From Escherichia phage SP15, in sequence record AP019559: DNA of 64,000 nt. One strand, given 5' to 3'. The translations under genes were made by a program, and so were the position numbers. Below, in pieces: positions 23,250 to 54,580 of this stretch (positions are counted from its first letter, which is position 1; every line of letters begins with the position of its first letter). Under the pieces are notes generated by a model. It had not been told where the DNA came from. It was given only the letters and a program-made list of their open reading frames with translations, and did no database searches.

Positions 23250-23623
23250 GCTAATCTTTCCTCGAACTCCTTACTCTGCTTTTTAGCAATTAATGTAACC
23301 AATCCAGGCTTTGCAGCTATAATATCTTGGCGACTAAGAGCTTTGTCTAACTGCTTAATCTTTTTGTCTAGATCTGCTTGCGAAATATTATTCATTGTGA
23401 AATACTGATTCATTCTAGTCTCACGAAGTTCGCTTTCAGCTTTCACCTTATTGAGGGAAGTCTCTAGAGAAGAAATCTTTTTAGTAGCCACCGCAAGATC
23501 TCCTGCTAAAGTCTCCACTTTATCTACTAAGTGATAAGCACCGAACCCGATGCCTATCGCTAGACCTGCTCCCAGGATATACATCTTGTTATTCCAAACT
23601 AAGTCTACAAACCATTTCCGCAT
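23180..23623 (-). CDS. i-spanin candidate (type II membrane protein with coiled coil)
   Basis: N-terminal transmembrane helix then long coiled-coil; 3' end overlaps the lipoprotein ORF. Confidence 0.5.
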   Translation of the reverse strand: MRKWFVDLVWNNKMYILGAGLAIGIGFGAYHLVDKVETLAGDLAVATKKISSLETSLNKVKAESELRETRMNQYFTMNNISQADLDKKIKQLDKALSRQDIIAAKPGLVTLIAKKQSKEFEERLACLTGNLEYCSQPQSQSQAVQKR

Positions 23624-24120
23624 TAGCCTGTACTCGCAAACTCACCGTGGAGTTCTTTGAGTTTGGTATCCCGCCATTTTATAGCCTCTTCCAAACTCTT
23701 AAGTGTTTTCGAAACTTGCTTACCATGTTTGGTAATTCTTACTTGGTAAGTCCCATTTGTTTTTCTATGGATATTTTTAACGCCTAAATGGTTATCGCTT
23801 CTTACTTTTTGGTTACAAGCATTATCAGATCTTGTAGCAGGCCTTAGATTCTCAAATCTATCATTAGTTGAGTCTTTGTCCTTGTGATCAACTATTTCAG
23901 GCCATTCTCCAGTATGCCATGCATAGATTAATCTATGTGCCCCTATAGCTATGGAACCATTATATAGTTCAACTACTCTATGCCCTGTACTTTGTCTAGA
24001 TCCTGCTACTGTTCCGGCGAATATCTTATTAAAATGTTCGTCCCCTTCCCTGGGTTTCCAGATAAGATTACCATCTTCTTGGTAATCGAACATTCTTCTT
24101 AGCTCTTCCTTACTGATCAT
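23623..24120 (-). CDS. HNH homing endonuclease
   Basis: 'VDHKDKDSTNDRFENLRPATRSDN'; paralog of the ORF at 18808. Confidence 0.7.
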   Translation of the reverse strand: MISKEELRRMFDYQEDGNLIWKPREGDEHFNKIFAGTVAGSRQSTGHRVVELYNGSIAIGAHRLIYAWHTGEWPEIVDHKDKDSTNDRFENLRPATRSDNACNQKVRSDNHLGVKNIHRKTNGTYQVRITKHGKQVSKTLKSLEEAIKWRDTKLKELHGEFASTG

Positions 24121-24815
24121 CTTTTCATATTCCTAAAAGAAGTAACAGTATCAAATCCATGTGCAGCTAAGCGATCCTTATCGGAAATCGTAATAGTATT
24201 TGGTTCGCCGGTTCCTAACACGCCCCAGATATATTGCTCGATCATCTGGTGCAAACGGTATAAGTTACTTTCAATTTCCTGCCACGGAATACCTGACTGA
24301 TGGAAACGAATGTTAGTCTGAATCACGAAGTTACGAACATCATCGTTATCGTTCTTCTTGATACCTTTCACATATGCAATCGGTACACGCAGTTCGGACA
24401 AGATACGTTCTGCTTTAGGTTTTGCTTCAACGAGCAAATCACGCATTGTTTCACGAACATCTCCGCGACTCTTATCCATTAAGTAAGAGCGAGCATGCAA
24501 TCCCATCTCTTCCATTTTATCGAACATAGTGTCGAGGTTGAACGTTTTGAAGCTAAATGCTGGATGCCAGCAGTACAGCTCGTGTAACCAGTAAACTTCA
24601 CCTGCAACAAATAGTGGGTTTACAAAATATTCGAAATCACCACGGAAAGATAGCGAACCATCACGAAATACCTGACGACTATGCACGATGTTCTTTTCTG
24701 CATCATCAGTTACTTTAACCAGTAGCTCTTCAGTTTTACGCTCCCAAACACGATCTGCATCAAATAAACTGTTCTGCAAATCATATACATCGGCGAATTT
24801 AGAAATGATCCTCAT
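24117..24815 (-). CDS. hypothetical protein
   Basis: 232-aa ORF downstream of an early promoter. Confidence 0.55.
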   Translation of the reverse strand: MRIISKFADVYDLQNSLFDADRVWERKTEELLVKVTDDAEKNIVHSRQVFRDGSLSFRGDFEYFVNPLFVAGEVYWLHELYCWHPAFSFKTFNLDTMFDKMEEMGLHARSYLMDKSRGDVRETMRDLLVEAKPKAERILSELRVPIAYVKGIKKNDNDDVRNFVIQTNIRFHQSGIPWQEIESNLYRLHQMIEQYIWGVLGTGEPNTITISDKDRLAAHGFDTVTSFRNMKR

Positions 24816-25708: not shown

Positions 25709-26001
25709 TTCAGATCCTTTTCATTAATTAGAATATTAGTAAACAGTGGAGTAACTCCTAGACTCATAGTAGGTCCAAACGTATTCATGGCTACCCATAG
25801 CTGCATAGTGATCATCCCATCTTTAATCTCTGGATCTTTATATTCTTCGATACGTTTCTTGGTAAAAGCAACTATATCTGGATTATTTTTATTTTCCTGA
25901 ATATAGTCATGCCAAAACTGAGTATTCTCACTACGTAGGAATGTTAAAACATCCTTAGTTGCTGGAATCTGCACTGTGCTGTTGATGTTTAGTCTTTTCA
26001 C
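25705..26001 (-). CDS. hypothetical protein
   Basis: 98 aa. Confidence 0.5.
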   Translation of the reverse strand: MKRLNINSTVQIPATKDVLTFLRSENTQFWHDYIQENKNNPDIVAFTKKRIEEYKDPEIKDGMITMQLWVAMNTFGPTMSLGVTPLFTNILINEKDLK

Positions 26002-26374
26002 GTTCTTCTCTCCGACGTTTGCGTTCTTTTATCATATGAGCTGCTACAACTTCATGGTAGTAGTCATTAATGTTATCTTCTGGCAAGAAATGCTTAATAG
26101 TCTCTAGCTGACAAATAACTCGATGAAGATGGTTATTTGGTAGACACAATTTTATACCTGCAACAAATCCAGAGAAGCCTGGAACACTGAACATGGGTTG
26201 GGCTTCTACTCTACCTTCAGAGTTGATATTAAGCTCAATTGAGATACCCATTTTCACGCTATAAAGCTGGCAATATTCTCCGTTACCAGACCTTGACCAA
26301 ACAGTGAAGTCCTCATCAATTTGATCTTGAATTTCTGTAATAGCAAATTTAATTCTAGGATCTAAATTATTCAT
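25955..26374 (-). CDS. hypothetical protein
   Basis: Track ORF 25955..26398; internal ATG at 26374 reduces overlap; start uncertain. Confidence 0.45.
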   Translation of the reverse strand: MNNLDPRIKFAITEIQDQIDEDFTVWSRSGNGEYCQLYSVKMGISIELNINSEGRVEAQPMFSVPGFSGFVAGIKLCLPNNHLHRVICQLETIKHFLPEDNINDYYHEVVAAHMIKERKRRREEREKTKHQQHSADSSN

Positions 26375-26666
26375 CTTCACCTTCAAAGTCGCAATCATAA
26401 CGACAAGTAAAAGAATCAGAACTATTAGTACGTTGAGTGGTTATTTCACCGCGTTTGCTAATAGTAACGGCTGGAGTAGAGAAGTTTTTATTAGTATATA
26501 TTTCTACTTTACCATTACGTTCCTTAACATCACGCACTTTACCATACTCGGTAATAATGCCGTTCTGTTGGACTTTAACATTACCATTTTTCATAGAAAC
26601 TTTGGTAGATGCCAGAGAACCGAAACTAACTGTGGAGATCATCAGTGCAATAATAAACTTATTCAT
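26367..26666 (-). CDS. secreted protein with signal peptide
   Basis: Track ORF 26367..26732 trimmed to MNKFIIAL... (GGAGG upstream); cleavable signal-like N-terminus. Confidence 0.45.
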   Translation of the reverse strand: MNKFIIALMISTVSFGSLASTKVSMKNGNVKVQQNGIITEYGKVRDVKERNGKVEIYTNKNFSTPAVTISKRGEITTQRTNSSDSFTCRYDCDFEGEDE

Positions 26667-26940
26667 CTTCATCCTCCCCACTACAATCACGACATACATC
26701 ATAATCGTTGAAAGAACGTTCGTGAGCTTCACACCACCAAGAACAAGAATCGCAGAGAAACATTTCGGTTTTCTCTAGTGCTTGACCTAAAAGATCATCA
26801 GCTTCCTCAGCAGTAATCTTCAATCCGCACACATCTGCCACACGTTCTTTAATTAAACGACCTGCTTCGTGATAAGACATACAGGTTCCCACAACATCAT
26901 GTTCAAGAACATGAACAGCACAGTCTAGACGAGTTTTCAT
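26659..26940 (-). CDS. Cys-rich acidic protein
   Basis: 93 aa with CxxC-like pairs and acidic tail. Confidence 0.5.
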   Translation of the reverse strand: MKTRLDCAVHVLEHDVVGTCMSYHEAGRLIKERVADVCGLKITAEEADDLLGQALEKTEMFLCDSCSWWCEAHERSFNDYDVCRDCSGEDEDE

Positions 26941-26970
26941 TTCAAACCTCTCTCATCAATTTATAAATAT

Positions 26971-26999
26971 ATTATAGCAAGAAAAGAGAGGTTTAGCAA
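26971..26999 (-). promoter_or_regulatory. T5-type early promoter
   Basis: Minus strand TTGCTA, 17 nt, TATAAT. Confidence 0.6.
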
Positions 27000-27016
27000 A
27001 TGAATTATTTCAGAAT

Positions 27017-27364
27017 TTAGTCATAGCACCACCATAATCCACGCTTACGCATGTCATGATCGCGATTATAATCATAATTTTCTGGATCTTTCATCACGCG
27101 GTGGAGTTCTTGACGATTCCCTTGACGAACCATTTTATTAGAATGCCACTTAACATTCTTACTAATAGAATTCCAGTTATAACCATCCTTTTTCTCATTA
27201 CGAATGGTTGCTTCCTTCATTTCCTGTTCTACATCATCCCAGGATTTAGCATAAATAACACGAATCCAGTAGCCATTTTCTTTGATGAAAGAATATTCTT
27301 GAGAGAATTGTTCTTTAGACTTCCACCACTGATCACCAGATTGTTTACGATAAGTACGGCTCAT
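27017..27364 (-). CDS. hypothetical basic Trp-rich protein
   Basis: 115 aa. Confidence 0.5.
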   Translation of the reverse strand: MSRTYRKQSGDQWWKSKEQFSQEYSFIKENGYWIRVIYAKSWDDVEQEMKEATIRNEKKDGYNWNSISKNVKWHSNKMVRQGNRQELHRVMKDPENYDYNRDHDMRKRGLWWCYD

Positions 27365-27485
27365 ATTACCTCCATTAAGTCTTTTAAATTAACCTAATGT
27401 GGATGAATTTTGTTATACATATATTATGTACCTTTATACAGAAAAACCCCAGACTACTTATTCAATAGCTGGGGTTTGTTATTAA

Positions 27486-27800
27486 TTACAGATCGGGGCG
27501 TTCATCTTCGAAACAGCCTGAGCTAATTCCTTCTCCGAATCCTACAAAGCCATCAAATTCATCATTTGAGATGCCCATAATCATTGCTTCCATTTTCCTA
27601 ATCTCCGAAATTTTCATGCCTGCTTTACTATTCTTATAATATTTGCGAGGGTTCCCGCACATCCAACAAGAACAGATGCAAGGAGTAGTAGTGATAATAC
27701 CTAACCGCTTAGGGCTTTCTTCATGTGGGAAGACTGTCCAATACTTCTTGCGGTTGTTCTTCACACGTTGCCGGTGATGGCGTCTTAATGCTCGATCCAC
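27486..27800 (-). CDS. zinc-ribbon-like Cys-rich protein
   Basis: 'CICSCWMCGNPRK' cluster. Confidence 0.5.
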   Translation of the reverse strand: MDRALRRHHRQRVKNNRKKYWTVFPHEESPKRLGIITTTPCICSCWMCGNPRKYYKNSKAGMKISEIRKMEAMIMGISNDEFDGFVGFGEGISSGCFEDERPDL

Positions 27801-27881
27801 ACATTTCTCCTAAAACTTGGGAGATAAACGGAGTTTGCTCGACTACCTTGCGTAGCTGGGAGAAATCATATCCAAACCCCA

Positions 27882-28250
27882 TTACATCGCCTGAGTAAAT
27901 GTACGACTAATAACGTCGTTCTGTTGTTCACGAGTCAGTGCATTAAATCGAACAGCGTAGCCAGAGACACGGATGGTCAACTGAGGATATTTTTCAGGAT
28001 GTTTCTGCGCATCCAAAAGCTGATCACGGCTTAACACATTGACATTTAGGTGCTGACCACCTTCGATTTGAGGGGCGACTTCCACCTTAACTTCACGGAA
28101 GGCTTCGGGATCGAATTGTGGTGTGATACCTTCTAGATCTTCAACTAGAACTTTCTGTTTAAGTTCACCATTGTCGGAGTATAGCTGAATAATCTGATTT
28201 TCATGAACAAGGTTAATTACGCCAGACTTAAGATTTTGATATGCTTTCAT
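27882..28250 (-). CDS. grcA: autonomous glycyl radical cofactor, GrcA/YfiD-like
   Basis: C-terminal '[10 protein letters not shown]...[17 protein letters not shown]' matches the glycyl-radical domain of E. coli GrcA as I recall it. Confidence 0.75.
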
Positions 28251-28292
28251 TAGATCTCCCTGATGTTAGAATTTGGCTCAGCTCTTTATTGT

Positions 28293-28487
28293 CTATAGTT
28301 TACCACGATATACAGAAACTGTCTTACCAGTTTGGTTCATAACGTATGCTACTTCATCTTCTTTTAAGAAGATTGCTTGATCTATTCCAGAAATAGCTAT
28401 GCTTTTATTTCTGGGATTAAACCCTACGCTTTTACCAACATGAATCTGCTCACCACCATCAGTGGACATTATTTTAACTGTTAACAT
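28293..28487 (-). CDS. hypothetical protein
   Basis: 64 aa. Confidence 0.5.
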   Translation of the reverse strand: MLTVKIMSTDGGEQIHVGKSVGFNPRNKSIAISGIDQAIFLKEDEVAYVMNQTGKTVSVYRGKL

Positions 28488-28524
28488 AATTGCTCCTATA
28501 TTTAGCTATCTCTAGCTCTTTTAA

Positions 28525-28600
28525 TGGTAGTTAGTAGTGGATTTGAACCACTGTAGTCGCTCCGTATGAAGGAGGTGCATAACCACTCTGCCAACTAACT
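28525..28600 (-). tRNA. tRNA, anticodon CAT (Met, or Ile if lysidine-modified)
   Basis: Hand fold: 7-bp acceptor, T-arm GGTTCAAATCC, anticodon loop TTCATAC, encoded CCA. Confidence 0.6.
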
Positions 28601-28696
28601 GTTATGTTTTACTAGACTAAGTAAGTATTCTTTATACTCTTTAGACCAATTAGCTTTTTTAAACTTTCCTGGACGCATAGTCTTAATTCCTAGATT

Positions 28697-28773
28697 TGGT
28701 ACTCCGGGAGGGATTTAAACCCCCGATCTCTCGGTTATCAGCCGAGTGCTTTAGATCGCTAAGCTACCGAAGT
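28697..28773 (-). tRNA. tRNA-Ile (GAT)
   Basis: Hand fold: perfect anticodon stem CTCGG/CCGAG, loop CTGATAA. Confidence 0.75.
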
Positions 28774-28788
28774 ATTAGAATATTTACA

Positions 28789-29079
28789 TCATACACTGTC
28801 TAAGTAAGAAGTATAATGGAATTTAGCTTCTCCAGTCTTATCTACTTCTACCTCAGTTCGTGGTACTTGACGAACCACACCATGAATCATCTTATAGCGA
28901 ATGCCTTTAGCTGGTTCATGATCTTTTGGGAATACTTGTTTAACCGTTACTACTTTATATCCTTCACGCGGTGTTAACACTACTACTTGATCACCTTCTT
29001 TGATTTTCCAAGAAGATGGAAATTCATAGGTATATCTTTGACCACCAGTTTGGAATACTACAGAAAGATAACGTTTCAT
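28789..29079 (-). CDS. hypothetical protein
   Basis: 96-aa ORF between tRNA genes with its own promoter. Confidence 0.55.
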   Translation of the reverse strand: MKRYLSVVFQTGGQRYTYEFPSSWKIKEGDQVVVLTPREGYKVVTVKQVFPKDHEPAKGIRYKMIHGVVRQVPRTEVEVDKTGEAKFHYTSYLDSV

Positions 29080-29109
29080 TTGGTTTCCCTCTCATTAATT
29101 TATATAGAT

Positions 29110-29138
29110 ATTATAACAAGAAATAAGAGAGAAGGCAA
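29110..29138 (-). promoter_or_regulatory. T5-type early promoter
   Basis: Minus strand TTGCCT, 17 nt, TATAAT. Confidence 0.55.
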
Positions 29139-29153
29139 ATGAATTTTTAAATT

Positions 29154-29228
29154 TGGTGCTCCCACCAGGAATCGAACCCGGTTCAGATGCTTACAAGGCA
29201 ACTGCATCGCCAGCAATGCTTTAGGAGC
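29154..29228 (-). tRNA. tRNA-Thr (TGT)
   Basis: Hand fold: loop CTTGTAA, acceptor GCTCCTA/TGGGAGC. Confidence 0.7.
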
Positions 29229-29395
29229 GATGATCCCGTTATTTCAACGGGATTTCTTTTTCAATAACAGGAGACTTATCAGTCATAACTGTCATTGCCA
29301 TTTGTTGTAGAAATTCAAAGGTGAAGGCTACACGTTCTTCACCAATCTCTACTTCTACACGTTTCTTTTGTTTATCAATCTTTACTTTTAGGTTG

Positions 29396-29617
29396 TCAGC
29401 CATCTTCGGGTTCTCGTTGCTGTACTACTTCTAGCCAGTCTGGTAGAAGAAACTTTGTACGAAATTCTTCGTAAGTTTCTTTGGGATAAAAGCTAAAACC
29501 TCCTTTCTCATCATTCAGGATAACAGAACCGTCAGTTTGTTCATATGCTCGATATGTTTCTCCAATAATGATAACTCGCTTATCAGTACTTTTATTATGA
29601 AACTCAAAAACGTGCAT
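29396..29617 (-). CDS. hypothetical protein
   Basis: 73 aa. Confidence 0.5.
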   Translation of the reverse strand: MHVFEFHNKSTDKRVIIIGETYRAYEQTDGSVILNDEKGGFSFYPKETYEEFRTKFLLPDWLEVVQQREPEDG

Positions 29618-29633
29618 AATGTTTCCTTAAAGT

Positions 29634-29709
29634 TGGAGCGGCTAGAGGGAATCGAACCCTACTCAGCGAGGCTTGGAAGGCCTGCGACACAACCCGTGTG
29701 CTTAACCGC
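29634..29709 (-). tRNA. tRNA-Gly (TCC)
   Basis: Hand fold: loop CTTCCAA; short D-arm. Confidence 0.65.
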
Positions 29710-29717
29710 TTATTATT

Positions 29718-29793
29718 TGGCTGGAGAAGGAGGAATCGAACCTACCATTAACGGAGTCAAAGGCCGTTGTGCTAACCGTTACACTACTCTCCA
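29718..29793 (-). tRNA. tRNA-Gln (TTG)
   Basis: Hand fold: loop CTTTGAC, U1-A72. Confidence 0.65.
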
Positions 29794-29799
29794 AGTATT

Positions 29800-29875
29800 T
29801 GGCTGGGATGCCACGGATTGAACGTGGAACCTTCGGAGTCAGAGGCCGACGATCTGCCAATTGATCTACATCCCA
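29800..29875 (-). tRNA. tRNA-Gln (CTG)
   Basis: Hand fold: perfect acceptor and T-stems, loop CTCTGAC. Confidence 0.7.
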
Positions 29876-29888
29876 ATAATTCTTTACT

Positions 29889-30083
29889 TTATGTAAATAG
29901 GGTAACTGGCTCAGGTTCTTCAAGGCGCTTACCTTCATGATCTACTCGAATGACTCCGCATCCTTCGCAAACCACAACTGCACCATAACCTTCTTTGACT
30001 TCGGCTTCTGTAATCAGACCAGATAAGTCACCAGTATCTCTGCCCCACATATTAATGGAGCATTGTTTGCAGAAATCAGCCAT
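29889..30083 (-). CDS. small zinc-ribbon protein
   Basis: 64 aa with CxxC...CxxC. Confidence 0.5.
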   Translation of the reverse strand: MADFCKQCSINMWGRDTGDLSGLITEAEVKEGYGAVVVCEGCGVIRVDHEGKRLEEPEPVTLFT

Positions 30084-30108
30084 ATTTTATTTCCTATTTA
30101 AGTTAATT

Positions 30109-30185
30109 TGGGGTGGCTAGTGGAATTCGAATCCACATAGGCCTGATTCACAATCAGGATCATTAACCAATTATGATATAGCCAC
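30109..30185 (-). tRNA. tRNA-His (GTG)
   Basis: Hand fold: loop TTGTGAA, discriminator C, all stems perfect. Confidence 0.8.
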
Positions 30186-30414
30186 AATTGAAAACTCGCA
30201 GGGTTAGCGAAACCTTCCTCAATTAGCATGTTCTAGAATACTAATCAAGTTATCTCCTATTGCACGCAGCTCAAGACGAGTACGAATTTTCAATTGTGGC
30301 AGCTCTCAGAAACTCTTCTATTCTAGCCCCAGAAGCTTACCCCCGAACGCATGTCGGGAAAGTCTTTCCAAGCGCATCAAATAGCACCGTTACACTTTGA
30401 GCCATTGATGTATC

Positions 30415-30499
30415 AAGGAACAGAAGGATTTGAACCTTCACGAGATAGACCATTTATCTCAACCGCTTTTAAGGTATATTTCTAGGAGTGGATGTTCCT
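30415..30499 (-). other. degenerate tRNA-like element
   Basis: Perfect 7-bp acceptor AGGAACA/TGTTCCT, T-arm GAAGG-TTCAAAT-CCTTC, variable-arm-like hairpin; no canonical D or anticodon arm; no CCA. Confidence 0.4.
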
Positions 30500-30552
30500 A
30501 GTAAACCTATTCGGCAGTCCCGTCTACCAATTCCGGCATATTCCAAGAATTT

Positions 30553-30726
30553 TTATAAACCAGCAGAAGCCTCATTTAAAGCATCAACAATAGCTTCACG
30601 TTGGGTCATTCCATACCCAGTGGAATCTAGGTGTGGCAAATAAGCCATCCATCCCTTATCTGTTTCATGAAGGCATGCTTTAAATTTTTTACCGTCCTTC
30701 ATTGTTACAGTAACTGTTTTGCTCAT
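30553..30726 (-). CDS. hypothetical small protein (57 aa, below ORF-track cutoff)
   Basis: ATG with AAGGAA RBS, fills the gap between tRNA genes. Confidence 0.4.
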   Translation of the reverse strand: MSKTVTVTMKDGKKFKACLHETDKGWMAYLPHLDSTGYGMTQREAIVDALNEASAGL

Positions 30727-30746
30727 AATGATTCCTTATAGTTAAT

Positions 30747-30836
30747 TGGAGGAAGGTAATGGAGTCGAACCATCACCGTATCACTACAGCGGGCTAGTTT
30801 TCAAGACTAGTTGCGTACCACTACGCCCTACCTTCC
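30747..30836 (-). tRNA. tRNA-Ser (TGA), class II
   Basis: Hand fold: loop CTTGAAA, long variable arm. Confidence 0.8.
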
Positions 30837-30843
30837 ATTTGTT

Positions 30844-30934
30844 TGGCGGAAGAGGAGAGATTTGAACTCTCAAGCCGTTTTACCAGTCAGCCACTTTCCA
30901 AGCGGTTTTCGTCGCCAATTCGATTTGCTCTTCC
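30844..30934 (-). tRNA. class II tRNA, anticodon unresolved (possibly Ser GGA)
   Basis: Acceptor GGAAGAG/CTCTTCC and T-arm resemble tRNA-Ser; D/anticodon region does not fold canonically by hand. Confidence 0.4.
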
Positions 30935-31046
30935 AAAAATAAGATGATGCCTCTATCACACCAGGCAGTTACGCCCCGCTGGGATTCGAACCCATTAAAA
31001 CAGCTCAACCGAGATAGTAGGTTTAATTTACTCTGACCATCAAATT

Positions 31047-31123
31047 TGGTGCGTGACAAGGGATTCGAACCCTCAAAACCCGACTTCTAAGGACGGTATG
31101 TATGCCAATTCCATCAATCACGC
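31047..31123 (-). tRNA. tRNA with anticodon TAG (Leu by anticodon) but class I architecture
   Basis: Hand fold: loop CTTAGAA, 5-nt variable loop, discriminator A. Confidence 0.55.
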
Positions 31124-31128
31124 GTATT

Positions 31129-31207
31129 TGGTGGAGGATAACGAATTCGAATCGTTCTGATGTCCTCGGTGCAAGCGAGGTGTCCACTCCCAGCAGACCC
31201 ATCCCCC
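31129..31207 (-). tRNA. tRNA-Ala (TGC)
   Basis: Hand fold: G3-U70 wobble in acceptor, loop CTTGCAC. Confidence 0.7.
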
Positions 31208-31492
31208 AAAATCTTTAGTTTACTAAGGCTATTAGCTCGGCGTAACTACAGCACCTTCGCTTCGAGCGGAAGGAACTACGTCATCTCGCAAACCCGATAC
31301 ACTATTCAGTTGCCGCTGAATCTAGTGGACTAATCTAGAACCTCTCCCGAGTCATAGGGATCGTGCTTTTTGGCAGCCAGTCCTAGGTCGAGCTAATACC
31401 TTAGTGAACTATGATGAGGATTTCTCCTCATCAATTTATATAAACATTATATCAAGAAATTAAGCATTAAGCAACTGAATTTCTTATTTAAT

Positions 31493-31566
31493 TGGTACTC
31501 AGTAGTGGAATCGAACCACTGCAACCACCGTGTAAAGATGGAGTTCTACCATTAAACTAACCGAGC
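31493..31566 (-). tRNA. tRNA-Val (TAC)
   Basis: Hand fold: loop TTTACAC. Confidence 0.7.
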
Positions 31567-31719
31567 AAAAGACGTTCTATAATATAGGCTTCAGTTATAA
31601 GCTCATAAAACCCTGCGAATATCATTGCAATAGTAAAATTATCTATGATTACTATTGGCTCTTTAATTTTTTGAATGATTAAATAAAACCAGATAGTCAT
31701 ATCTGACTTCCTCGTAATT

Positions 31720-31798
31720 TGGTAGATCGCCTGGGACTCGAACCCAGAACCTTCCGATTAAAAGTCGGATGCTACTAAACCTATTGAGCTAGCGACCT
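31720..31798 (-). tRNA. tRNA-Lys (TTT)
   Basis: Hand fold: perfect anticodon stem, loop CTTTTAA. Confidence 0.7.
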
Positions 31799-31987
31799 AT
31801 TAGTAGCCATTATATACTTCTTTAATAGAATGGACTTTTAAGTAAGGATGATTAATCCCAAACTCCGCCATTACTTCTTTTTCATCTTTTCCATAATGTG
31901 CAAGTAAGGATCTTGAGGTATTATTACCTAAACGTTTGTCATTTACTACTAATCGAAATACTTTCATTTCGAAATCCTCTATTAAAA

Positions 31988-32064
31988 TGGAAGCGGGTGC
32001 AGGAATCGAACCTACCTCTTTCTAGCTTATGAGACTAGCGATCTCTACCAGAGATCTAACCCGC
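31988..32064 (-). tRNA. tRNA, anticodon CAT (Met/fMet/Ile2 not resolved)
   Basis: Hand fold: loop CTCATAA; acceptor pairing ambiguous at the 1-72 position. Confidence 0.6.
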
Positions 32065-32071
32065 AATTGTT

Positions 32072-32147
32072 TGGTCAGTGCGGCAGGACTCGAACCTGCG
32101 ACCCGAAGCATCCAAGGCTCCCACGCTACCAACTGCGCTACGCACTG
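32072..32147 (-). tRNA. tRNA-Pro (TGG)
   Basis: Hand fold: perfect acceptor CAGTGCG/CGCACTG, loop CTTGGAT. Confidence 0.8.
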
Positions 32148-32156
32148 TTAATTCTT

Positions 32157-32354
32157 TTATTGTGGGGGGATATTAATAATTCGTCCATCTACACAATAAA
32201 CGGTACTAGGGATTGTACTGTATATGTAGAAATTCTTTATATTACTCTCTCCGCCACAGAAATTTTTAGCAAATTCATACTCTTTATTAATGGTTGAGTC
32301 AAGTTTAAAACAACCAGTAAGTAGGAATACAGATAGCAATAAAACTTTCTTCAT
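32157..32354 (-). CDS. small lipoprotein
   Basis: 65 aa, signal peptide with lipobox 'LLTGC'; early-type promoter upstream. Confidence 0.5.
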   Translation of the reverse strand: MKKVLLLSVFLLTGCFKLDSTINKEYEFAKNFCGGESNIKNFYIYSTIPSTVYCVDGRIINIPPQ

Positions 32355-32564
32355 TTTGCTTTCCTTCTCTTCACTTTATAAAATATATTATACAGAGAAT
32401 TAAGTAAAATAGCAAATGAATTTTTAATAAATTTACTTATTGTGTAGGCCACCTGGAGGCTATGAACCCCACGGCTGACAAAGAAGTTTGCGAGACTTCT
32501 CTTAAAAGCCAGAATAGACCCGCCGATCTATCGGAACCTACATAATAAGTAAACTTTATAGTGT

Positions 32565-32640
32565 CATTCTAGACAGGACTCGAACCTGTTATCACTTGTG
32601 CGGACTTACGAGAACCATTCTTTCACTCGAATCGAACGAG
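32565..32640 (-). other. degenerate tRNA-like element with two T-arm-like hairpins
   Basis: ACAGG-TTCGAGT-CCTGT and CTCG-TTCGATT-CGAG hairpins; no canonical anticodon arm. Confidence 0.35.
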
Positions 32641-32807
32641 CTTCTGCCCTAGCCAAGCTGGTTTCCCCATCAACCACGCTAGAATGTTTGATTGTTTTCA
32701 GTGCAAGAGTCCGAGTCTTGGACACGACCGCTTCGCAAGTACATAGGCAGCTTATCATGAGTCAGCACTTCCGAATTGCTAGCCCCGTGTTCTGCACTGA
32801 AATTTTA

Positions 32808-33155
32808 TTAGTTTAACCGTAAAGTATTATCTACTTCACCATTAATTGTTCGGCATTCCTCTGGGATTGCTGGTGTAGCCTTGTATTCCCACCACTCAGC
32901 ACCATCATATTCCCCACGTTCTAGCCAAGTTCCATCGGCAAACCATACATTACCATAAAGTAATTGTCCACCGTATCCAGAATCATATTCAAAGTCTAGG
33001 TTATTAAGAAACCCCTCAATGTCTTCTTCTGTATAACCTAAAGGTAATACCCAGACTTTTTTGTCCCCATAATACCCAAATTCTATTTTAATACACTTAA
33101 CTTTAGAATTGGTATTTTTTAAGGCGAGTAACAGCTCTTCTTTAGCATTACGCAT
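32808..33155 (-). CDS. hypothetical protein
   Basis: 115 aa, Trp/Tyr/Gly-rich. Confidence 0.5.
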   Translation of the reverse strand: MRNAKEELLLALKNTNSKVKCIKIEFGYYGDKKVWVLPLGYTEEDIEGFLNNLDFEYDSGYGGQLLYGNVWFADGTWLERGEYDGAEWWEYKATPAIPEECRTINGEVDNTLRLN

Positions 33156-33180
33156 AGTATATTCTCATACTGAATTAAGT

Positions 33181-33257
33181 TGGCGCGACCGATGGGATTT
33201 GAACCCACATTCTCTCCCGTGACAGGGGAGTACCATTACCAAGCCAGCCCCGGTCGC
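33181..33257 (-). tRNA. tRNA-Asp (GTC)
   Basis: Hand fold: perfect acceptor GCGACCG/CGGTCGC, loop CTGTCAC. Confidence 0.8.
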
Positions 33258-33266
33258 ATAATTCAT

Positions 33267-33452
33267 TTACTCAGCTTTGAGTTTTTCAATAGCTGCATTA
33301 AGTTCTTTAAGAAACTCTTTTCGTACATTAAGACGATTGAGACTTACTAGTATATCGTGTTTAAGTTCTTCGATGTATTTCTTTTCAACTTCAATATTGT
33401 TGATAGTGCTATCACGATGAACTTCTAGCTGCGCAATTACATTCTTGGACAT
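33267..33452 (-). CDS. small coiled-coil protein
   Basis: 61 aa. Confidence 0.5.
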   Translation of the reverse strand: MSKNVIAQLEVHRDSTINNIEVEKKYIEELKHDILVSLNRLNVRKEFLKELNAAIEKLKAE

Positions 33453-33554
33453 GCTTGTTTCCTCAGTTATTAATGAAAATGGTATCTGTGGCTGAATTCG
33501 ATGTCAGCAATGATAGCTGGTTGGCTACCGGTTTACTTAACTCTACACAGAATT

Positions 33555-33637
33555 TGGCGGGCCGTGTAGGATTCGAACCTACGTTGTCTTTCGACATGGA
33601 TTAACAGTCCACCGCCAAACCGCTTGGCTAACGACCC
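33555..33637 (-). tRNA. class II (long variable arm) tRNA with anticodon GTT (Asn by anticodon), discriminator G
   Basis: Hand fold is clean: D-stem GCCA/TGGC, anticodon stem GTGGA/TCCAT, loop CTGTTAA, variable hairpin GTC-GAAA-GAC, T-arm GTAGG-TTCGAAT-CCTAC. Confidence 0.6.
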
Positions 33638-33789
33638 TAAATTTATATTGCTGACTAGGATTTTCACCTAGACGGAGTTAGCACCGTAGCGTGTAGCGGC
33701 ATACCTCTCCAAACCGTGCCTCATCTTTCAATTACGGAGACAGTGTTCCTACGCGTGCCTGAATTGATTCAACAATTCTTCCAGCAAAT

Positions 33790-33865
33790 TGGACGACCGC
33801 ATGAGATTTGAACTCACATAAAAAGGATTTGCAATCCTTCGCCTAAGCCCTTCAGCCAACGGTCG
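33790..33865 (-). tRNA. tRNA-Cys (GCA)
   Basis: Hand fold: perfect anticodon stem AAGGA/TCCTT, loop TTGCAAA. Confidence 0.75.
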
Positions 33866-33934
33866 GTTTATCTTGTTCTGTCATGTTGCTTCTCCAGTTC
33901 AATTTATGTAATTATTATACAGAACTTTTGGAAA

Positions 33935-34207
33935 CTAAGCAACTACATTTTTTAAGAATTTGATGCCTTTCTTTTTCTTCTTATATTTCCACGTTAATGG
34001 ATTCTGTCGATTATGAACGCTTGAGATCTTTGTCTCGTCAAAGTTCTTCAATATCATGTAATCACAGGATAATTGTTCTAGTAGAATGTGATCACCGTCA
34101 AAAGCGTATACATAAGGCTGTTGACTAACACGATAATGATAGACTTTGTTAATTCTACGTTTCAGCGACTTATCAGCGCAGTAAATAAAGAAGTTTTCAG
34201 GATGCAT
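33935..34207 (-). CDS. hypothetical basic protein
   Basis: Track ORF 33935..34222 (TTG start) trimmed to the ATG at 34207 with AAGGAG RBS. Confidence 0.5.
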   Translation of the reverse strand: MHPENFFIYCADKSLKRRINKVYHYRVSQQPYVYAFDGDHILLEQLSCDYMILKNFDETKISSVHNRQNPLTWKYKKKKKGIKFLKNVVA

Positions 34208-34224
34208 CAGCAGCTCCTTCAATT

Positions 34225-34299
34225 TGGTGCACCCTGTTCGTATCGAACGAACCTCTCAAGCTCTTCAGGCAAGCGCTAATCCATCTCAGCTAAAGGTGC
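34225..34299 (-). tRNA. tRNA-Phe (GAA)
   Basis: Hand fold: U8-A9, D-stem GCTG/TAGC, loop CTGAAGA; two U-U mismatches in anticodon stem. Confidence 0.55.
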
Positions 34300-34305
34300 A
34301 AATTT

Positions 34306-34382
34306 TGGCAAACCTACTAGGACTCGAACCTAGACCGTACGGTTTTGGAGACCGACATGCTGTCCAGTAACACTCTAGGAAT
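34306..34382 (-). tRNA. tRNA-Trp (CCA)
   Basis: Hand fold: loop CTCCAAA, perfect T-stem; acceptor has two U-U mismatches. Confidence 0.55.
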
Positions 34383-34390
34383 GCAGAAAT

Positions 34391-34467
34391 TGGCGTCCTG
34401 TGCGGGGATCGAACCCGCAAATCCTACCTTGAAAGGGTAGTGACTTTACCAGTTTGTCTAACAGGAC
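34391..34467 (-). tRNA. tRNA-Glu (TTC)
   Basis: Hand fold: all four stems perfect, loop CTTTCAA. Confidence 0.85.
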
Positions 34468-34474
34468 TTAAATT

Positions 34475-34565
34475 TGGTGTTGGATGATGGAGTCGAACCA
34501 CCCGAGACCCTTCCGAGTCGGCAGATTTACAGTCTGCTTCGCTACCTCTACGATACTAATCCAAC
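34475..34565 (-). tRNA. tRNA-Tyr (GTA), class II
   Basis: Hand fold: perfect acceptor GTTGGAT/ATCCAAC, anticodon arm GCAGA-CTGTAAA-TCTGC, long variable arm. Confidence 0.75.
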
Positions 34566-34630
34566 ATATTTAGAAGTATTCAAAAATTCTCATTTAAACA
34601 CTTTTAAATATGTTTTCAAATTAGGTAACT

Positions 34631-34687
34631 ATTATACCAAGTTTTAAGGCACTGAGCAAGTCAAATTTTAAAGAACTTGCTCAGTGC
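34631..34687 (-). promoter_or_regulatory. early promoter for the tRNA cluster overlapping a 13-bp perfect inverted repeat
   Basis: Minus strand TTGCTC, 17 nt, TATAAT (34631-34659); inverted repeat GCACTGAGCAAGT 34649-34661 / 34675-34687. Confidence 0.55.
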
Positions 34688-34695
34688 TATATTAG

Positions 34696-34971
34696 TTAGT
34701 CGAACTTAGGAGTGACAGTTAAGGAGAACGGAAGTTCGAAAACTTCTTCACCCTCATTACTAACGGTAACTACACGACCTTTAAGTTCAGACATTAAAAT
34801 ATCAATATCAGCTTTTGCATCTGGAGCCATACCAGCTTCAACACATTTAGCTTTAACTTCCGGCAGAAGTTCGACATCGTAGAAATAAAGCCATTCAATC
34901 TCACCTTCCCAGCCTTCCCAGGATTTACAGATTGCACTTTCAATACCAGTTGCTACAACACGATTTTGCAT
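34696..34971 (-). CDS. hypothetical acidic protein
   Basis: 91 aa. Confidence 0.5.
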   Translation of the reverse strand: MQNRVVATGIESAICKSWEGWEGEIEWLYFYDVELLPEVKAKCVEAGMAPDAKADIDILMSELKGRVVTVSNEGEEVFELPFSLTVTPKFD

Positions 34972-35061
34972 TCGTTAACTCCTTCATCAATTTATACAAC
35001 TATTATATCAGAAATTTAAAGCAAAAGGCAAGTACATTTTTAAAAATTCTGTTTGGAGGAG

Positions 35062-35268
35062 CTAAACTCCAGATTCTTCAGCTAAGTCTAGGCTAATAAG
35101 AGTTATAGCCATAATTGCTGCACCGTGTTCTTTTTCTCCGGTGTTTTTAGCAGAGTCTATAATAGTCTTAATCTGTTCGTAATAGCCTTTTACTTCTTGT
35201 TCAATACCTGCCTCGGCTATCATGCCTTTAGTCATGATTCGTTGCATAGTAATTTCACGGTTAGCCAT
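35062..35268 (-). CDS. hypothetical protein
   Basis: 68 aa. Confidence 0.5.
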   Translation of the reverse strand: MANREITMQRIMTKGMIAEAGIEQEVKGYYEQIKTIIDSAKNTGEKEHGAAIMAITLISLDLAEESGV

Positions 35269-35428
35269 GATGTTTCTCCAGCTTCATTTTTAATAGTTTA
35301 CAAATGAAATCAACGTCTTCATCTGTACCTAGATCTCTATCTTCAAGAGTTGCCTTGAAGTTTTTAGTCAATTCCATGAGGATAACTTCTCTAGAACGAC
35401 GTGTTGGCGGAGGTGGATGTCTATACAT
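35261..35428 (-). CDS. hypothetical small protein (55 aa, below ORF-track cutoff)
   Basis: ATG with AAGGAAATAAG RBS; 8-nt overlap with the downstream gene. Confidence 0.35.
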   Translation of the reverse strand: MYRHPPPPTRRSREVILMELTKNFKATLEDRDLGTDEDVDFICKLLKMKLEKHHG

Positions 35429-35443
35429 CTTATTTCCTTAGTT

Positions 35444-35520
35444 TGGTAGGGGTGGTGGGATTCGAACCCACAAAACCTGAATTTTAAGTCCAGTACCTAT
35501 GCCAATTCGATTACACCCCC
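35444..35520 (-). tRNA. tRNA with anticodon TAA (Leu by anticodon) but class I architecture
   Basis: Hand fold: good acceptor and T-stem, loop CTTAAAA, 5-nt variable loop, discriminator A. Confidence 0.55.
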
Positions 35521-35527
35521 GTGTAGT

Positions 35528-35716
35528 TTAGTCAATTACTTTTGAGGCTTCAAGGTAGTCGATATAGTGTATGTTTTCTACCGTAATCATATAATCTGTC
35601 ACTTTATCCATAGCTTGGGCTTCAGAGGTAGCTCTGGCTAACCTATATCCTTTTTTATATTCATCCGGGTATTCTCTATCTTGGATAAACACAACATAAA
35701 CTATATATAGATCCAT
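35528..35716 (-). CDS. hypothetical protein
   Basis: 62 aa. Confidence 0.5.
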   Translation of the reverse strand: MDLYIVYVVFIQDREYPDEYKKGYRLARATSEAQAMDKVTDYMITVENIHYIDYLEASKVID

Positions 35717-35735
35717 TTGTGACCTCTATTTAATT

Positions 35736-35813
35736 TGGTGGCTCCCCGAGGATTCGAACCTACGTACCTTCCGGTTATGAGCCGGGTGCTCATACCATAT
35801 GAGCTTGAGAACC
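35736..35813 (-). tRNA. tRNA, anticodon CAT (third copy)
   Basis: Hand fold: perfect D-stem GCTC/GAGC, loop CTCATAA; weak T-stem. Confidence 0.5.
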
Positions 35814-35819
35814 AGAATT

Positions 35820-35908: not shown

Positions 35909-35929
35909 GAATTTATAAGATATATTATA

Positions 35930-37697: not shown

Positions 37698-37718
37698 TAT
37701 TAAGGGGAGGAGCCCATT

Positions 37719-52705: not shown

Positions 52706-54580
52706 ATGAATCGCAATGAAGAACTGAAGTATAAAGAAATGCAGGCGTTAATTAGAAACTGCAAAGAGATTATCGAAGGGTCAGCAGATGAAGAGCTGCT
52801 GTTTAATAATGCCAATAAACCCTCAGAACGTTTCCCTACACAAAGGGATATGCTTGCAGGTGAGTTGAGTAAGTATCTAATTCTAGAAGAAATGCCAATT
52901 CAGATTCGAAATGCTCATATGATTGGGGATATTCATTTCCATGATGCTGATTATGCTGCATTAGGCATGACTAACTGTTGCCTGGTAGCTCTGGAAGATA
53001 TGTTGAAGAATGGTATGAAGGTTGGTAATGCTGAAATTAGCACTCCAAACTCTATCACTACTGCGGCGGCTATCACTGCTCAGATTATCACTCAAGTTAG
53101 CTCCCATCAGTATGGCGGTACTTCTGTAGATCGCCTTGATGAAGTATTAGCCCCTTATGTTCGTAAATCCTATGACAAAAATCATGCGTTTGCAAAACGT
53201 TGGACTAAGGATGAAGCCAAAGCATCCGTAATGGCTACGGAGATGACTGAAAAAGAAGTCTATGATGCTTGTCAGGGTCTAGAGTATGAAATCAATACGA
53301 TGTTCAACTCTAATGGTCAGAGTCCGTTTATTACCTTTGGCTTTGGTCTGGGAACTTCTTGGGAGGCACGTCTAGTACAGAAAGCAATACTGAAAGTACG
53401 TATGGATGGTTTAGGTATCAATAAACGTACAGCTATCTTCCCGAAACTGGTATTTGTGCTTCGTGATGGCGTAAATATGAAACCAGGAGATGTTAATTAT
53501 GACATCAAGAAGTTAGCTATGAAATGTACTGCTGAACGTATGTATCCAGATTATATCAGCTATGACAAAGTTGTAGAAGTTACTGGAGACTACAAAGTTT
53601 CTATGGGCTGCCGTTCATTCCTAGCTGCTACAGAAGATGGTGAAACTGCCGGTCGTAATAACTTAGGTGTTGTTTCTGTAAACTTGCCTAGAATTGCTAT
53701 CGAAGCTGAAGGAAATATTGACCTATTCTTTGATTTGCTTGAGCTACGTGTGGATACAGCGTTAAAAGCATTGGAGTGGAGAGTTGATCGCTTAAAATAC
53801 ATTCAAGCTAAAGCTGCGCCCATCCTCTATATGTCAGGAGCCTTTGGACTGCGCTTGGAGCCTGATGAATATGTATTCGATCATTTCTATAACCGTGCTT
53901 CTGTATCTCTAGGGTATATTGGTTGCCATGAAATGCTACAGTTCATGTTTGGCAAAGATGTAGACACAATGTCCGAGACCTGCATCAAGTTTGTTCAGCG
54001 TGTATTGCAGTACATGCGGGATAGAGTAGATCAGAAGAAGGAAGAAACTAAGTTAGGTTATAGCCTGTATGCTACACCATCAGAGTCCCTGTGTGACCGT
54101 TTTTGTCGTCTAGACCGTGAATATTTCCCGGAGCATGAAGATATTCTGTCCAAAGGATACTACACTAACTCTCACCACCTTGATGTGGAACGTAAAGTTG
54201 CTCCTAACGTCAAATTTGATTATGAGTCTAACTTTACTCCTATTGCTTCTGGTGGGTGCATCTCCTATGTAGAATTACCGGATATGAAACGATTCCCAGA
54301 TGCACTGGAATGGGTTATTAATTATGCTGCTAGTAAGGTTCATTACTTCGGTATTAATACTCCAGTGGATTCTTGTGGTAAATGTGGATTCTTAGGTGAA
54401 ACAATAGCATCCGAAGATGGATTTAAGTGCCCTATCTGTGGTAATCATGACCCCGAAACTCTTGAAGTAACTCGCCGAGTTTGTGGGTATCTTGGAAATC
54501 CAGGTGCTCGTCCATTTAACCCCGGCAAACAGCACGAGGTGATGGGTAGAGTTAAGCATCAGGATATTCGAGCTAAGTAA
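52706..54580 (+). CDS. nrdD: anaerobic ribonucleoside-triphosphate reductase
   Basis: C-terminal 'CxxC...C' zinc ribbon and glycyl-radical motif 'RVCGYLGNPGARPFN'. Confidence 0.85.
   Translation: MNRNEELKYKEMQALIRNCKEIIEGSADEELLFNNANKPSERFPTQRDMLAGELSKYLILEEMPIQIRNAHMIGDIHFHDADYAALGMTNCCLVALEDMLKNGMKVGNAEISTPNSITTAAAITAQIITQVSSHQYGGTSVDRLDEVLAPYVRKSYDKNHAFAKRWTKDEAKASVMATEMTEKEVYDACQGLEYEINTMFNSNGQSPFITFGFGLGTSWEARLVQKAILKVRMDGLGINKRTAIFPKLVFVLRDGVNMKPGDVNYDIKKLAMKCTAERMYPDYISYDKVVEVTGDYKVSMGCRSFLAATEDGETAGRNNLGVVSVNLPRIAIEAEGNIDLFFDLLELRVDTALKALEWRVDRLKYIQAKAAPILYMSGAFGLRLEPDEYVFDHFYNRASVSLGYIGCHEMLQFMFGKDVDTMSETCIKFVQRVLQYMRDRVDQKKEETKLGYSLYATPSESLCDRFCRLDREYFPEHEDILSKGYYTNSHHLDVERKVAPNVKFDYESNFTPIASGGCISYVELPDMKRFPDALEWVINYAASKVHYFGINTPVDSCGKCGFLGETIASEDGFKCPICGNHDPETLEVTRRVCGYLGNPGARPFNPGKQHEVMGRVKHQDIRAK

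What the first reader, a model, noticed from the sequence alone, without database searches (positions are those of the whole stretch)
27882..28250. Phage-encoded GrcA-like glycyl-radical spare part alongside NrdD, with no NrdG activase
The 122-aa protein ends in the RVSGY glycyl-radical motif typical of GrcA/YfiD, which repairs oxygen-damaged pyruvate formate-lyase. The window also encodes the glycyl-radical enzyme NrdD (52706-54580) but no radical-SAM activase, so the phage would rely on host activases while supplying glycyl-radical domains for anaerobic growth.
Basis: partly seen in the sequence, partly recalled or inferred. Interest (0 to 1): 0.5.

Follow-up and report, generated by a model that had tools for sequence, protein, structure and literature searches.

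The report
T5-type phage GrcA-like PFL spare part
This is the T5-family copy of a known small phage protein that very probably repairs the host's oxygen-damaged pyruvate formate-lyase; it is real and conserved, but it is already annotated in public genomes and has a biochemically tested counterpart in phage T4.

Summary
Window 27882-28250 (- strand) encodes a 122-aa protein with a Shine-Dalgarno site. RVSGYAV lies at residues 94-100, with the radical glycine at Gly97. The C-terminal 62 residues are 79% identical to the E. coli PflB C-terminus and 77% to GrcA. The whole protein is 52% identical to T4 Y06I (gene vs.6), a spare part shown by others to be radicalised by host PflA and to restore oxygen-cleaved PFL.

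The window comes from a T5-like phage (Tequintavirus). The gene is the ortholog of T5.056 and is 100% identical to proteins already deposited as "autonomous glycyl radical cofactor". It occurs in about 430 phage records and is under strong purifying selection (dN/dS about 0.05).

NrdD at 52706-54580 is confirmed. No NrdG, PflA or other radical-SAM activase was found in the window or in the complete genome of the closest relative. NrdD without NrdG in T5-type phages was already noted in 2013.

One new point: the NrdD glycyl-radical loop is 25/31 identical to E. coli NrdD, against 12-21/31 in five coliphages that carry their own NrdG. This fits dependence on the host activase.

Interest is low.

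The parts
27882..28250 (-). CDS of the 122-aa GrcA/Y06I-type autonomous glycyl-radical protein (ortholog of T5.056). RVSGYAV is at aa 94-100 and the radical glycine is Gly97.
   Evidence: ORF list; Pfam Gly_radical; NCBIfam GrcA 121 bits; PDB GrcA and PflB; 52% full-length identity to T4 Y06I; phrog_1209 matched end to end; dN/dS 0.05
28256..28261 (-). Shine-Dalgarno AGGGAG, 5 nt upstream of the ATG
   Evidence: sequence read directly
29110..29138 (-). Sigma-70-type promoter-like site (TTGCCT-17-TATAAT with an extended TG). It is positionally equivalent to T5 promoter P11 and is the likely start of the transcript that carries tRNA-Ile, tRNA-Met and the GrcA-like gene.
   Evidence: consensus scan; T5 annotation of P11 at the equivalent place. 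Function is inferred.
28293..28487 (-). 64-aa ORF of unknown function between tRNA-Met and the GrcA-like gene. It lies in the same transcription unit and is absent from T5.
   Evidence: phrog_3909
27486..27800 (-). 104-aa ORF (T5.055 ortholog) directly downstream, with the Cys cluster PCICSCWMCGNPRK. It appears to be co-transcribed. It is not an activase.
   Evidence: no Pfam hit; phrog_4499, unknown function
27442..27477 (-). Intrinsic terminator hairpin (AAACCCCAGCUA...UAGUCUGGGGUUU followed by UUUUUCU) that ends the unit
   Evidence: sequence; fold gives -19 kcal/mol, z = -5.0, 0 of 200 shuffles as stable; T5 annotates a terminator at the equivalent place
52706..54580 (+). NrdD, class III (anaerobic) ribonucleotide reductase, 624 aa. 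It has no ATP-cone, a glycyl-radical motif RRVCGYLG and a four-Cys zinc site. No nrdG follows it.

Best explanation
The gene encodes a functional phage version of the 'spare part' protein GrcA/YfiD, of the same type as T4 Y06I. After oxygen exposure the host's active pyruvate formate-lyase (PflB) is cut at its radical glycine (Gly734). The phage protein docks its C-terminal 62-65 residues, a near copy of PflB 695-759, into the cleaved enzyme. The host's own radical-SAM activase PflA then abstracts a hydrogen from Gly97 within RVSGYAV. The hybrid enzyme again converts pyruvate plus CoA to acetyl-CoA and formate. This would keep fermentative energy and acetyl-CoA supply running in a gut host whose own gene expression T5 has shut off. 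The gene is expressed from the early tRNA-cluster transcription unit. The phage also supplies a second oxygen-labile glycyl-radical protein, NrdD, and encodes no activase, so both proteins must be radicalised by host enzymes already present in the cell (PflA and NrdG). Shown here: the sequence features, conservation, selection, absence of an activase and transcription signals. Inferred: activation by PflA, docking on cleaved PflB, benefit to the phage, and activation of NrdD by host NrdG.
For: C-terminal 62 aa are 49/62 identical to PflB, 48/62 to GrcA and 48/62 to Y06I. All 39 columns invariant across 32 family members are retained. Only 10 positions are unique to this protein; 7 are at sites that already vary among PflB, GrcA and Y06I, and the other 3 are conservative. 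RVSGYAV, the peptide substrate crystallised on PFL-AE, is intact. Full-length homology to T4 Y06I is 52%, E = 5e-39, including the MKAYQ start. Y06I is reported to be activated by PFL-AE and to rescue cleaved PFL (PMC8683613). Structure search of the AF2 model ranks YfiD 6owr first, then PFL. Purifying selection: 31 synonymous against 8 non-synonymous changes versus T5, and 20 against 0 versus JLBYU40. The gene is present in 432 phage records at 80% nucleotide identity or more. It is also present inside the tRNA cluster of a Vibrio member of another Demerecviridae subfamily. SD site, promoter-like site and terminator. No activase in the window or in the relative's genome. E. coli K-12 encodes pflA, pflB, nrdG and grcA. 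The NrdD glycyl loop is 25/31 identical to the host's, against 12-21/31 in five NrdG-encoding coliphages.
Against: No experiment exists for any T5-type protein. The N-terminal 50 residues show no BLAST similarity to E. coli GrcA, and in YfiD that region matters for binding cleaved PFL. The protein scores below the NCBIfam GrcA equivalog cut-off (121 against 170), although validated T4 Y06I also does (151). The AF2 model has low confidence (pLDDT 64). The rest of this phage's own genome, beyond the 64-kb window, was not seen; absence of an activase there rests on a 91-99% identical relative. T4 keeps its own NrdG, so host NrdG is not obviously sufficient for phage NrdDs in general.
Confidence: 0.8

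Rival explanations
1. The protein is a spare part for a glycyl-radical enzyme other than PflB. Candidates are the host paralog TdcE (2-ketobutyrate formate-lyase) or the phage's own NrdD.
For: Some GenBank records call it '2-ketobutyrate formate-lyase' or 'ribonucleotide reductase subunit'. Authors of PMC8683613 speculate that spare parts may exist for other glycyl-radical enzymes. The phage does carry an oxygen-labile NrdD.
Against: The C-domain is 79% identical to PflB. It ranks PflB and GrcA far above every other glycyl-radical enzyme in the PDB (1e-27 to 1e-30 against 1e-12 or weaker). It shares only the generic Gly motif with NrdD, lies 24 kb away and is on the other strand. TdcE was not compared here, so use on TdcE in addition to PflB is not excluded.
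Confidence: 0.08
2. The protein is a decoy. It soaks up host PflA or occupies PFL so as to reduce host fermentation or redirect pyruvate, rather than repairing PFL.
For: It keeps the exact PflA recognition peptide. Its N-terminus differs from that of the host GrcA.
Against: Conservation covers the whole PFL-docking domain, not only the activase loop. The T4 homolog restores PFL activity in vitro. Free YfiD is a poor PFL-AE substrate unless bound to cleaved PFL, which makes sequestration inefficient.
Confidence: 0.05
3. The ORF is a decaying fragment of host pflB or grcA picked up by the phage and has no function.
For: The homology to host genes is restricted to their 3' ends.
Against: dN/dS is about 0.05. 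The gene is intact in about 430 genomes. It is only 74-77% identical to host genes at the nucleotide level and has phage-like GC content. It has its own SD site. It has a phage-specific N-terminal half shared with T4-type and jumbo phages.
Confidence: 0.02

Closest known systems
Bacteriophage T4 Y06I (gene vs.6), autonomous glycyl radical cofactor
   Same: A small stand-alone phage protein (120 against 122 aa). It is homologous over its full length (52% identity, same MKAYQ start), has an identical [10 protein letters not shown] core, and comes from a phage with no PflA. It is reported to be radicalised by host PFL-AE and to rescue oxygen-cleaved PFL.
   Different: The C-terminal half of T4 is almost host GrcA (59/62 aa, and 97.8% nucleotide identity to E. 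coli grcA). The T5-type C-domain is equally distant from GrcA, Y06I and PflB (48-49/62). The T5-type protein has a shorter middle region. T4 also carries its own NrdG, which the T5-type phage lacks. No biochemistry exists for the T5-type protein.
E. coli GrcA (YfiD), PDB 6owr
   Same: 74% identity over aa 51-122. It is the best PDB sequence hit and the best fold hit. The domain plan is the same: a variable N-terminal half plus a PFL-like glycyl-radical domain.
   Different: The N-terminal 50 residues are not detectably similar by BLAST. They align only in a family alignment, where Gln5 is nearly invariant. The protein falls below the NCBIfam equivalog cut-off. It is phage-encoded and sits in an early tRNA-cluster operon.
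C-terminal glycyl-radical domain of pyruvate formate-lyase PflB (residues about 695-759)
   Same: 49/62 identical, including the end ...TFTQ(A/S)M.
   Different: The 690-residue catalytic barrel with Cys418/Cys419 is absent, so the protein cannot be a formate acetyltransferase on its own. GenBank names such as 'pyruvate formate-lyase' or 'acetyltransferase-like' are misnomers.
Phage T5 gene T5.056 and the nrdA-phoH-nrdD arrangement of T5-type phages
   Same: Direct ortholog (8 aa differences) at the same position after tRNA-Met. The same nrdAB / phoH / nrdD layout without nrdG is described in PMC3653736.
   Different: The window has an extra 64-aa ORF between tRNA-Met and the gene.

Membership tests
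[quoted passage not shown] | Small stand-alone protein of about 14 kDa | tested here: met
   122 aa, with its own SD site and stop
[quoted passage not shown] | C-terminal domain that duplicates the PflB C-terminus (about residues 695-759) | tested here: met
   49/62 identical to PflB and 48/62 to GrcA; fold hits are 6owr and then PFL
[quoted passage not shown] | Radical glycine inside the PFL-AE recognition sequence RVSGYAV | tested here: met
   aa 94-100 are identical, with Gly97; this peptide is the PFL-AE substrate in PDB 3CB8
[quoted passage not shown] | N-terminal half homologous to that of family members (needed for binding cleaved PFL in YfiD) | tested here: inconclusive
   Full-length homology to T4 Y06I and to phrog_1209. 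No BLAST similarity to the E. coli GrcA N-terminus. It aligns in the family alignment with Gln5 nearly invariant.
[quoted passage not shown] | Score above the NCBIfam TIGR04365 equivalog cut-off (170 bits) | tested here: not met
   121 bits. The biochemically validated T4 Y06I also fails at 151 bits, while E. coli GrcA scores 234. The cut-off therefore excludes known functional phage members.
[quoted passage not shown] | Radical installation by PflA and restoration of activity to oxygen-cleaved PFL | not testable with these tools
   Needs EPR and enzyme assays. Known only for YfiD and Y06I.
Class III ribonucleotide reductase NrdD | NRDD catalytic domain, C-terminal glycyl-radical motif and four-Cys zinc site | tested here: met
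   Pfam NRDD 2.7e-172 and Gly_radical 9.4e-23; RRVCGYLG and CxxC-x14-CxxC
Class III ribonucleotide reductase NrdD | Cognate activase NrdG encoded alongside | tested here: not met
   No NrdG found by tblastn or HMM in the window or in the FFH1 genome. None is annotated in FFH1. The same is reported for T5-type phages.
Glycyl-radical-enzyme activase (radical SAM; PflA/NrdG type) | CX3CX2C cluster motif in a protein of about 150-250 aa homologous to PflA or NrdG | tested here: not met
   The only motif matches are a 41-aa low-complexity frame and the 104-aa ORF 27486-27800, which has no Pfam or radical-SAM similarity.

The most novel reading that the evidence does not exclude
T5-type phages follow a 'consumables only' strategy. 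They encode the two proteins that oxygen destroys stoichiometrically: the NrdD glycyl-radical subunit and a PFL spare part. They leave the catalytic, reusable activases (NrdG, PflA) to the host. T5 shuts off host expression, so both phage functions would work only in cells that were already anaerobically primed. The NrdD glycyl loop is held host-like (25/31 identical) so that it stays a substrate of host NrdG. This contrasts with five coliphage lineages that carry their own NrdG and have drifted to 12-21/31.
Probability: 0.5. Interest if true: 0.3.

Novelty: already known. Interest (0 to 1): 0.15.

Why it matters
If it works as inferred, this is an auxiliary metabolic gene. It would let a virulent gut phage keep the host's central fermentative enzyme running through oxygen fluctuations, using a 14-kDa patch instead of a new 170-kDa enzyme. 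That principle was established for T4 in 2001. The T5-family copy adds breadth: about 430 T5-type genomes and about 1,580 phage records in all carry such a gene. It does not add a new principle. Two practical values follow. First, many database entries ('pyruvate formate-lyase', 'acetyltransferase-like', 'ribonucleotide reductase subunit', PHROG 'unknown function') could be corrected. Second, T5-type phages lack NrdG and so offer a clean natural test of whether a phage NrdD can be activated by the host NrdG.

Tried and rejected
1. The Cys-rich 104-aa ORF just downstream (27486-27800) was considered as a hidden mini-activase because it matches C...C..C. It was rejected: it is too short, has no Pfam or radical-SAM similarity, belongs to a PHROG of unknown function, and is not conserved next to the T4 or Vibrio-phage homologs.
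2. I looked for a conserved gene neighbourhood shared with T4 vs.6. None was found.
3. Literature searches for T5.056, T5 transcriptome or proteome data and 'T5-like' plus glycyl radical returned nothing relevant. Two search or find calls failed because a term was too short. PMC9112899 and PMC6754787 are not held.
The accepted model has low confidence (pLDDT 64), so nothing is concluded about the N-terminal half beyond weakly predicted beta-strands.
5. Recent capture from the host was rejected for the window gene (74-77% nucleotide identity), although it appears true for the 3' half of T4 vs.6.
6. Aeromonas phage PhAER-4 (nrdG-positive, 115 kb) was inspected as a possible T5-relative with NrdG. 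Its taxonomy is unassigned, so nothing was concluded.
7. A Rfam scan of 26000-40000 found only tRNAs and nothing overlapping the gene.

Full report
**Observation**

Window 27882-28250 holds, on the minus strand, an ATG-initiated ORF of 122 codons plus a TAA stop. An AGGGAG Shine-Dalgarno site lies 5 nt upstream of the ATG. The product contains RVSGYAV at residues 94-100, with the radical glycine at Gly97. The motif is therefore 25 residues from the C-terminus, as in GrcA and PflB, and not literally at the end. The small ORFs on the opposite strand are 36-57 codons long and have no support.

The homology is strong:
- Pfam Gly_radical: 3.7e-18, 66 bits against a cut-off of 22.
- NCBIfam GrcA models are the best hits.
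- Among solved structures the best matches are E. coli GrcA/YfiD (6owr, 1.4e-30) and PflB (5e-27). Every other glycyl-radical enzyme scores 1e-12 or weaker.

**Source of the window**

The region is 99.9% identical to Escherichia phage vB_EcoS_FFH1 and 95-98% identical to many Salmonella and Escherichia Tequintavirus genomes. The window is collinear with the left 63.6 kb of FFH1. It carries the T5-type array of 23 tRNA genes immediately upstream of the gene.

The gene is the ortholog of T5.056, which T5 annotates as 'putative acetyltransferase-related protein, match to IPR001150'. The protein is 100% identical to those of FFH1 and JLBYU40, and the JLBYU40 protein is deposited as 'putative autonomous glycyl radical cofactor'.

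**Is it a real, selected gene?**

- Against T5 there are 31 synonymous and 8 non-synonymous differences (dN/dS 0.05).
- Against JLBYU40 there are 20 synonymous and 0 non-synonymous differences.
- Megablast finds the gene in 432 phage records, 430 of them at 80% coverage or more. NrdD is found in 401 records. Both therefore behave as core genes of the group.
- A Vibrio phage of another Demerecviridae subfamily (KIT04) has a GrcA gene in the same kind of position, inside its tRNA cluster.
- At the protein level 1,584 of 50,697 phage records carry a homolog. These include T4-type phages (gene vs.6), Klebsiella and Enterobacter T4-likes, jumbo phages, and Vibrio and Aeromonas phages.
- PHROGs holds the family as phrog_1209, matched end to end and labelled 'unknown function'.

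**Anatomy**

The C-terminal 62 residues are 49/62 identical to PflB 698-759, 48/62 to E. coli GrcA and 48/62 to T4 Y06I. Thirty-nine columns are invariant across 32 phage and bacterial family members, and all are kept. Only ten positions are unique to this protein. Seven lie at sites that already vary among PflB, GrcA and Y06I, and the other three are conservative changes (E to D, S to A, S to A).

The N-terminal half shows no BLAST similarity to E. coli GrcA. It is homologous to T4 Y06I: 52% identity over the full length, E = 5e-39, with a shared MKAYQ start. It aligns with the whole family, with Gln5 nearly invariant.

An AlphaFold model built on a 32-sequence alignment has low overall confidence (pLDDT 64), with 73-86 in the C-terminal domain. 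This is expected for a protein whose partner supplies most of the fold. A Foldseek search of the PDB ranks YfiD first and PFL next.

**Expression context**

- A sigma-70-type promoter-like site at 29138-29110 (- strand) corresponds to T5 promoter P11.
- Downstream of the next ORF (27486-27800) there is a strong hairpin followed by a U-run at 27477-27442: -19 kcal/mol, z = -5.0. T5 annotates a terminator at the same place.
- The inferred unit runs: promoter, 96-aa ORF, tRNA-Ile, tRNA-Met, 64-aa ORF, GrcA-like gene, 104-aa ORF, terminator.
- This lies in the region that holds early genes in T5 (my own knowledge).

**Activase question**

- tblastn with E. coli NrdG, T4 NrdG and E. coli PflA gives nothing better than E = 0.075 in the window or in the full FFH1 genome.
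- An NrdG HMM and phmmer with PflA on all six-frame ORFs of 30 aa or more are negative.
- The CX3CX2C motif occurs only in a 41-aa low-complexity frame, a 72-aa repetitive frame of FFH1, and the 104-aa ORF 27486-27800. That ORF has no radical-SAM similarity.
- FFH1's annotation lists no activase.
- NrdG is common in other phages, with 2,273 records. A 60-record spread sample contains no T5-type phage.
- Dwivedi et al. 2013 had already reported that many phages carry nrdD with nrdAB but no nrdG. [quoted passage not shown]

**NrdD**

The 624-aa protein matches Pfam NRDD (2.7e-172) and is 54% identical to E. coli NrdD residues 113-705. It lacks the N-terminal ATP-cone region. It keeps RRVCGYLG and the four-Cys site.

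I compared the 31 residues around the radical glycine with E. coli NrdD:

| Phage | Own NrdG | Loop identity to E. coli NrdD | Overall identity to E. coli NrdD |
|---|---|---|---|
| T5-type (this window) | no | 25/31 | 54% |
| MIZ2 | yes | 21/31 | 54% |
| T4 | yes | 18/31 | 56-59% |
| PHB05 | yes | 18/31 | 45% |
| Turkey3 | yes | 18/31 | 44% |
| tootiki | yes | 12/31 | 30% |

T4 and MIZ2 are at least as similar to E. coli NrdD overall as the T5-type protein is, yet their loops are less host-like. This fits the loop being constrained to remain a substrate of host NrdG. It rests on six lineages without phylogenetic correction, so it is suggestive only.

**Mechanism**

Others have established that oxygen cleaves active PFL at Gly734. 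YfiD and T4 Y06I bind the cleaved enzyme, are radicalised by PFL-AE, and restore activity. [quoted passage not shown] RVSGYAV is the PFL-AE substrate peptide (PMC10665898).

Inferred for this protein: the same cycle on the host's PflB, using host PflA. E. coli K-12 has pflA, pflB, grcA and nrdG. T5 shuts down host expression (my own knowledge). A phage-encoded patch would therefore substitute for host GrcA synthesis, and both glycyl-radical proteins of the phage would depend on activases already present in the cell.

I put the probability of this reading at 0.8. The rivals are each below 0.1, for the reasons given in their entries:
- use on TdcE or NrdD instead of PflB;
- a decoy for PflA;
- a dead gene fragment.

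**Comparison and novelty**

The closest characterised relative is T4 Y06I (vs.6). One difference is worth recording. The 3' half of T4's gene is 97.8% identical at the DNA level to E. coli grcA. The T5-type gene is only 74-77% identical to grcA or pflB and has phage-like GC content. It is therefore an old resident of the phage genome rather than a recent capture.

The protein misses the NCBIfam GrcA equivalog cut-off (121 against 170 bits), but so does validated Y06I at 151 bits. I therefore file it as a member of the GrcA/Y06I kind, with the N-terminal criterion marked inconclusive.

The finding was already public in three respects:
- Identical proteins are annotated with the correct function.
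- The phage precedent was tested biochemically in 2001.
- NrdD without NrdG in T5-type phages was published in 2013.

The finding is correct and ordinary. Interest is 0.15.

Noticed in passing
L008:5058-5420 (T4 vs.6) against L004:3067-3450 (E. coli grcA): The 3' 185 nt of T4 vs.6 (Y06I) are 97.8% identical at the DNA level to E. coli K-12 grcA, while the 5' half is phage-type. The validated T4 spare part therefore looks like a mosaic whose C-terminal half was recently replaced from the host. The window gene shows no such tract (74-77% identity).
   Followed up: partly
window 54460-54560 (NrdD C-terminal loop); L009, L013-L016: The 31-residue glycyl-radical loop of the T5-type NrdD is 25/31 identical to E. 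coli NrdD, against 12-21/31 in five coliphages that encode their own NrdG. Two of those five (T4 and MIZ2) are at least as similar to E. coli NrdD overall.
   Followed up: partly
window 27486-27800 (-): A 104-aa ORF (T5.055 ortholog) appears to be co-transcribed directly after the GrcA-like gene. It has a dense Cys cluster, PCICSCWMCGNPRK, no Pfam hit, and matches phrog_4499 of unknown function. It may be a small metal-binding protein.
   Followed up: partly
window 28293-28487 (-): A 64-aa ORF (phrog_3909) lies between tRNA-Met and the GrcA-like gene. It is present in FFH1 and JLBYU40 but absent from T5, where the gene directly follows tRNA-Met.
   Followed up: no
L012:2884-3234 (Vibrio phage KIT04): A Vibrio-infecting Demerecviridae phage (Ermolyevavirinae) also has a GrcA gene embedded in its tRNA cluster. 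Its C-domain is closest to Vibrio GrcAs (57-58/62), so the C-domains appear to track the host genus.
   Followed up: partly
window 55442-56260 (+) and 51601-52362 (-): A Sir2-family protein (Pfam SIR2, 1.1e-25) lies downstream of nrdD, after three small ORFs of unknown function. A PhoH-like ATPase lies between nrdA and nrdD.
   Followed up: no
window 35739-35813 (-) and 31129-31207 (-): The two tRNA finders disagree. Rfam reports a tRNA at 35739-35813 that ARAGORN does not list (FFH1 annotates a tRNA-Met there). ARAGORN's tRNA-Ala at 31129-31207 does not reach the Rfam gathering score.
   Followed up: no
window 5307-5656, 10523-11565, 23582-24126, 30552-30839, 31267-31708, 57941-58977: These stretches have no megablast alignment longer than 300 bp to the closest relative FFH1. 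They are probably indels or swapped cassettes, such as homing endonucleases or small ORFs typical of T5-type genomes.
   Followed up: no
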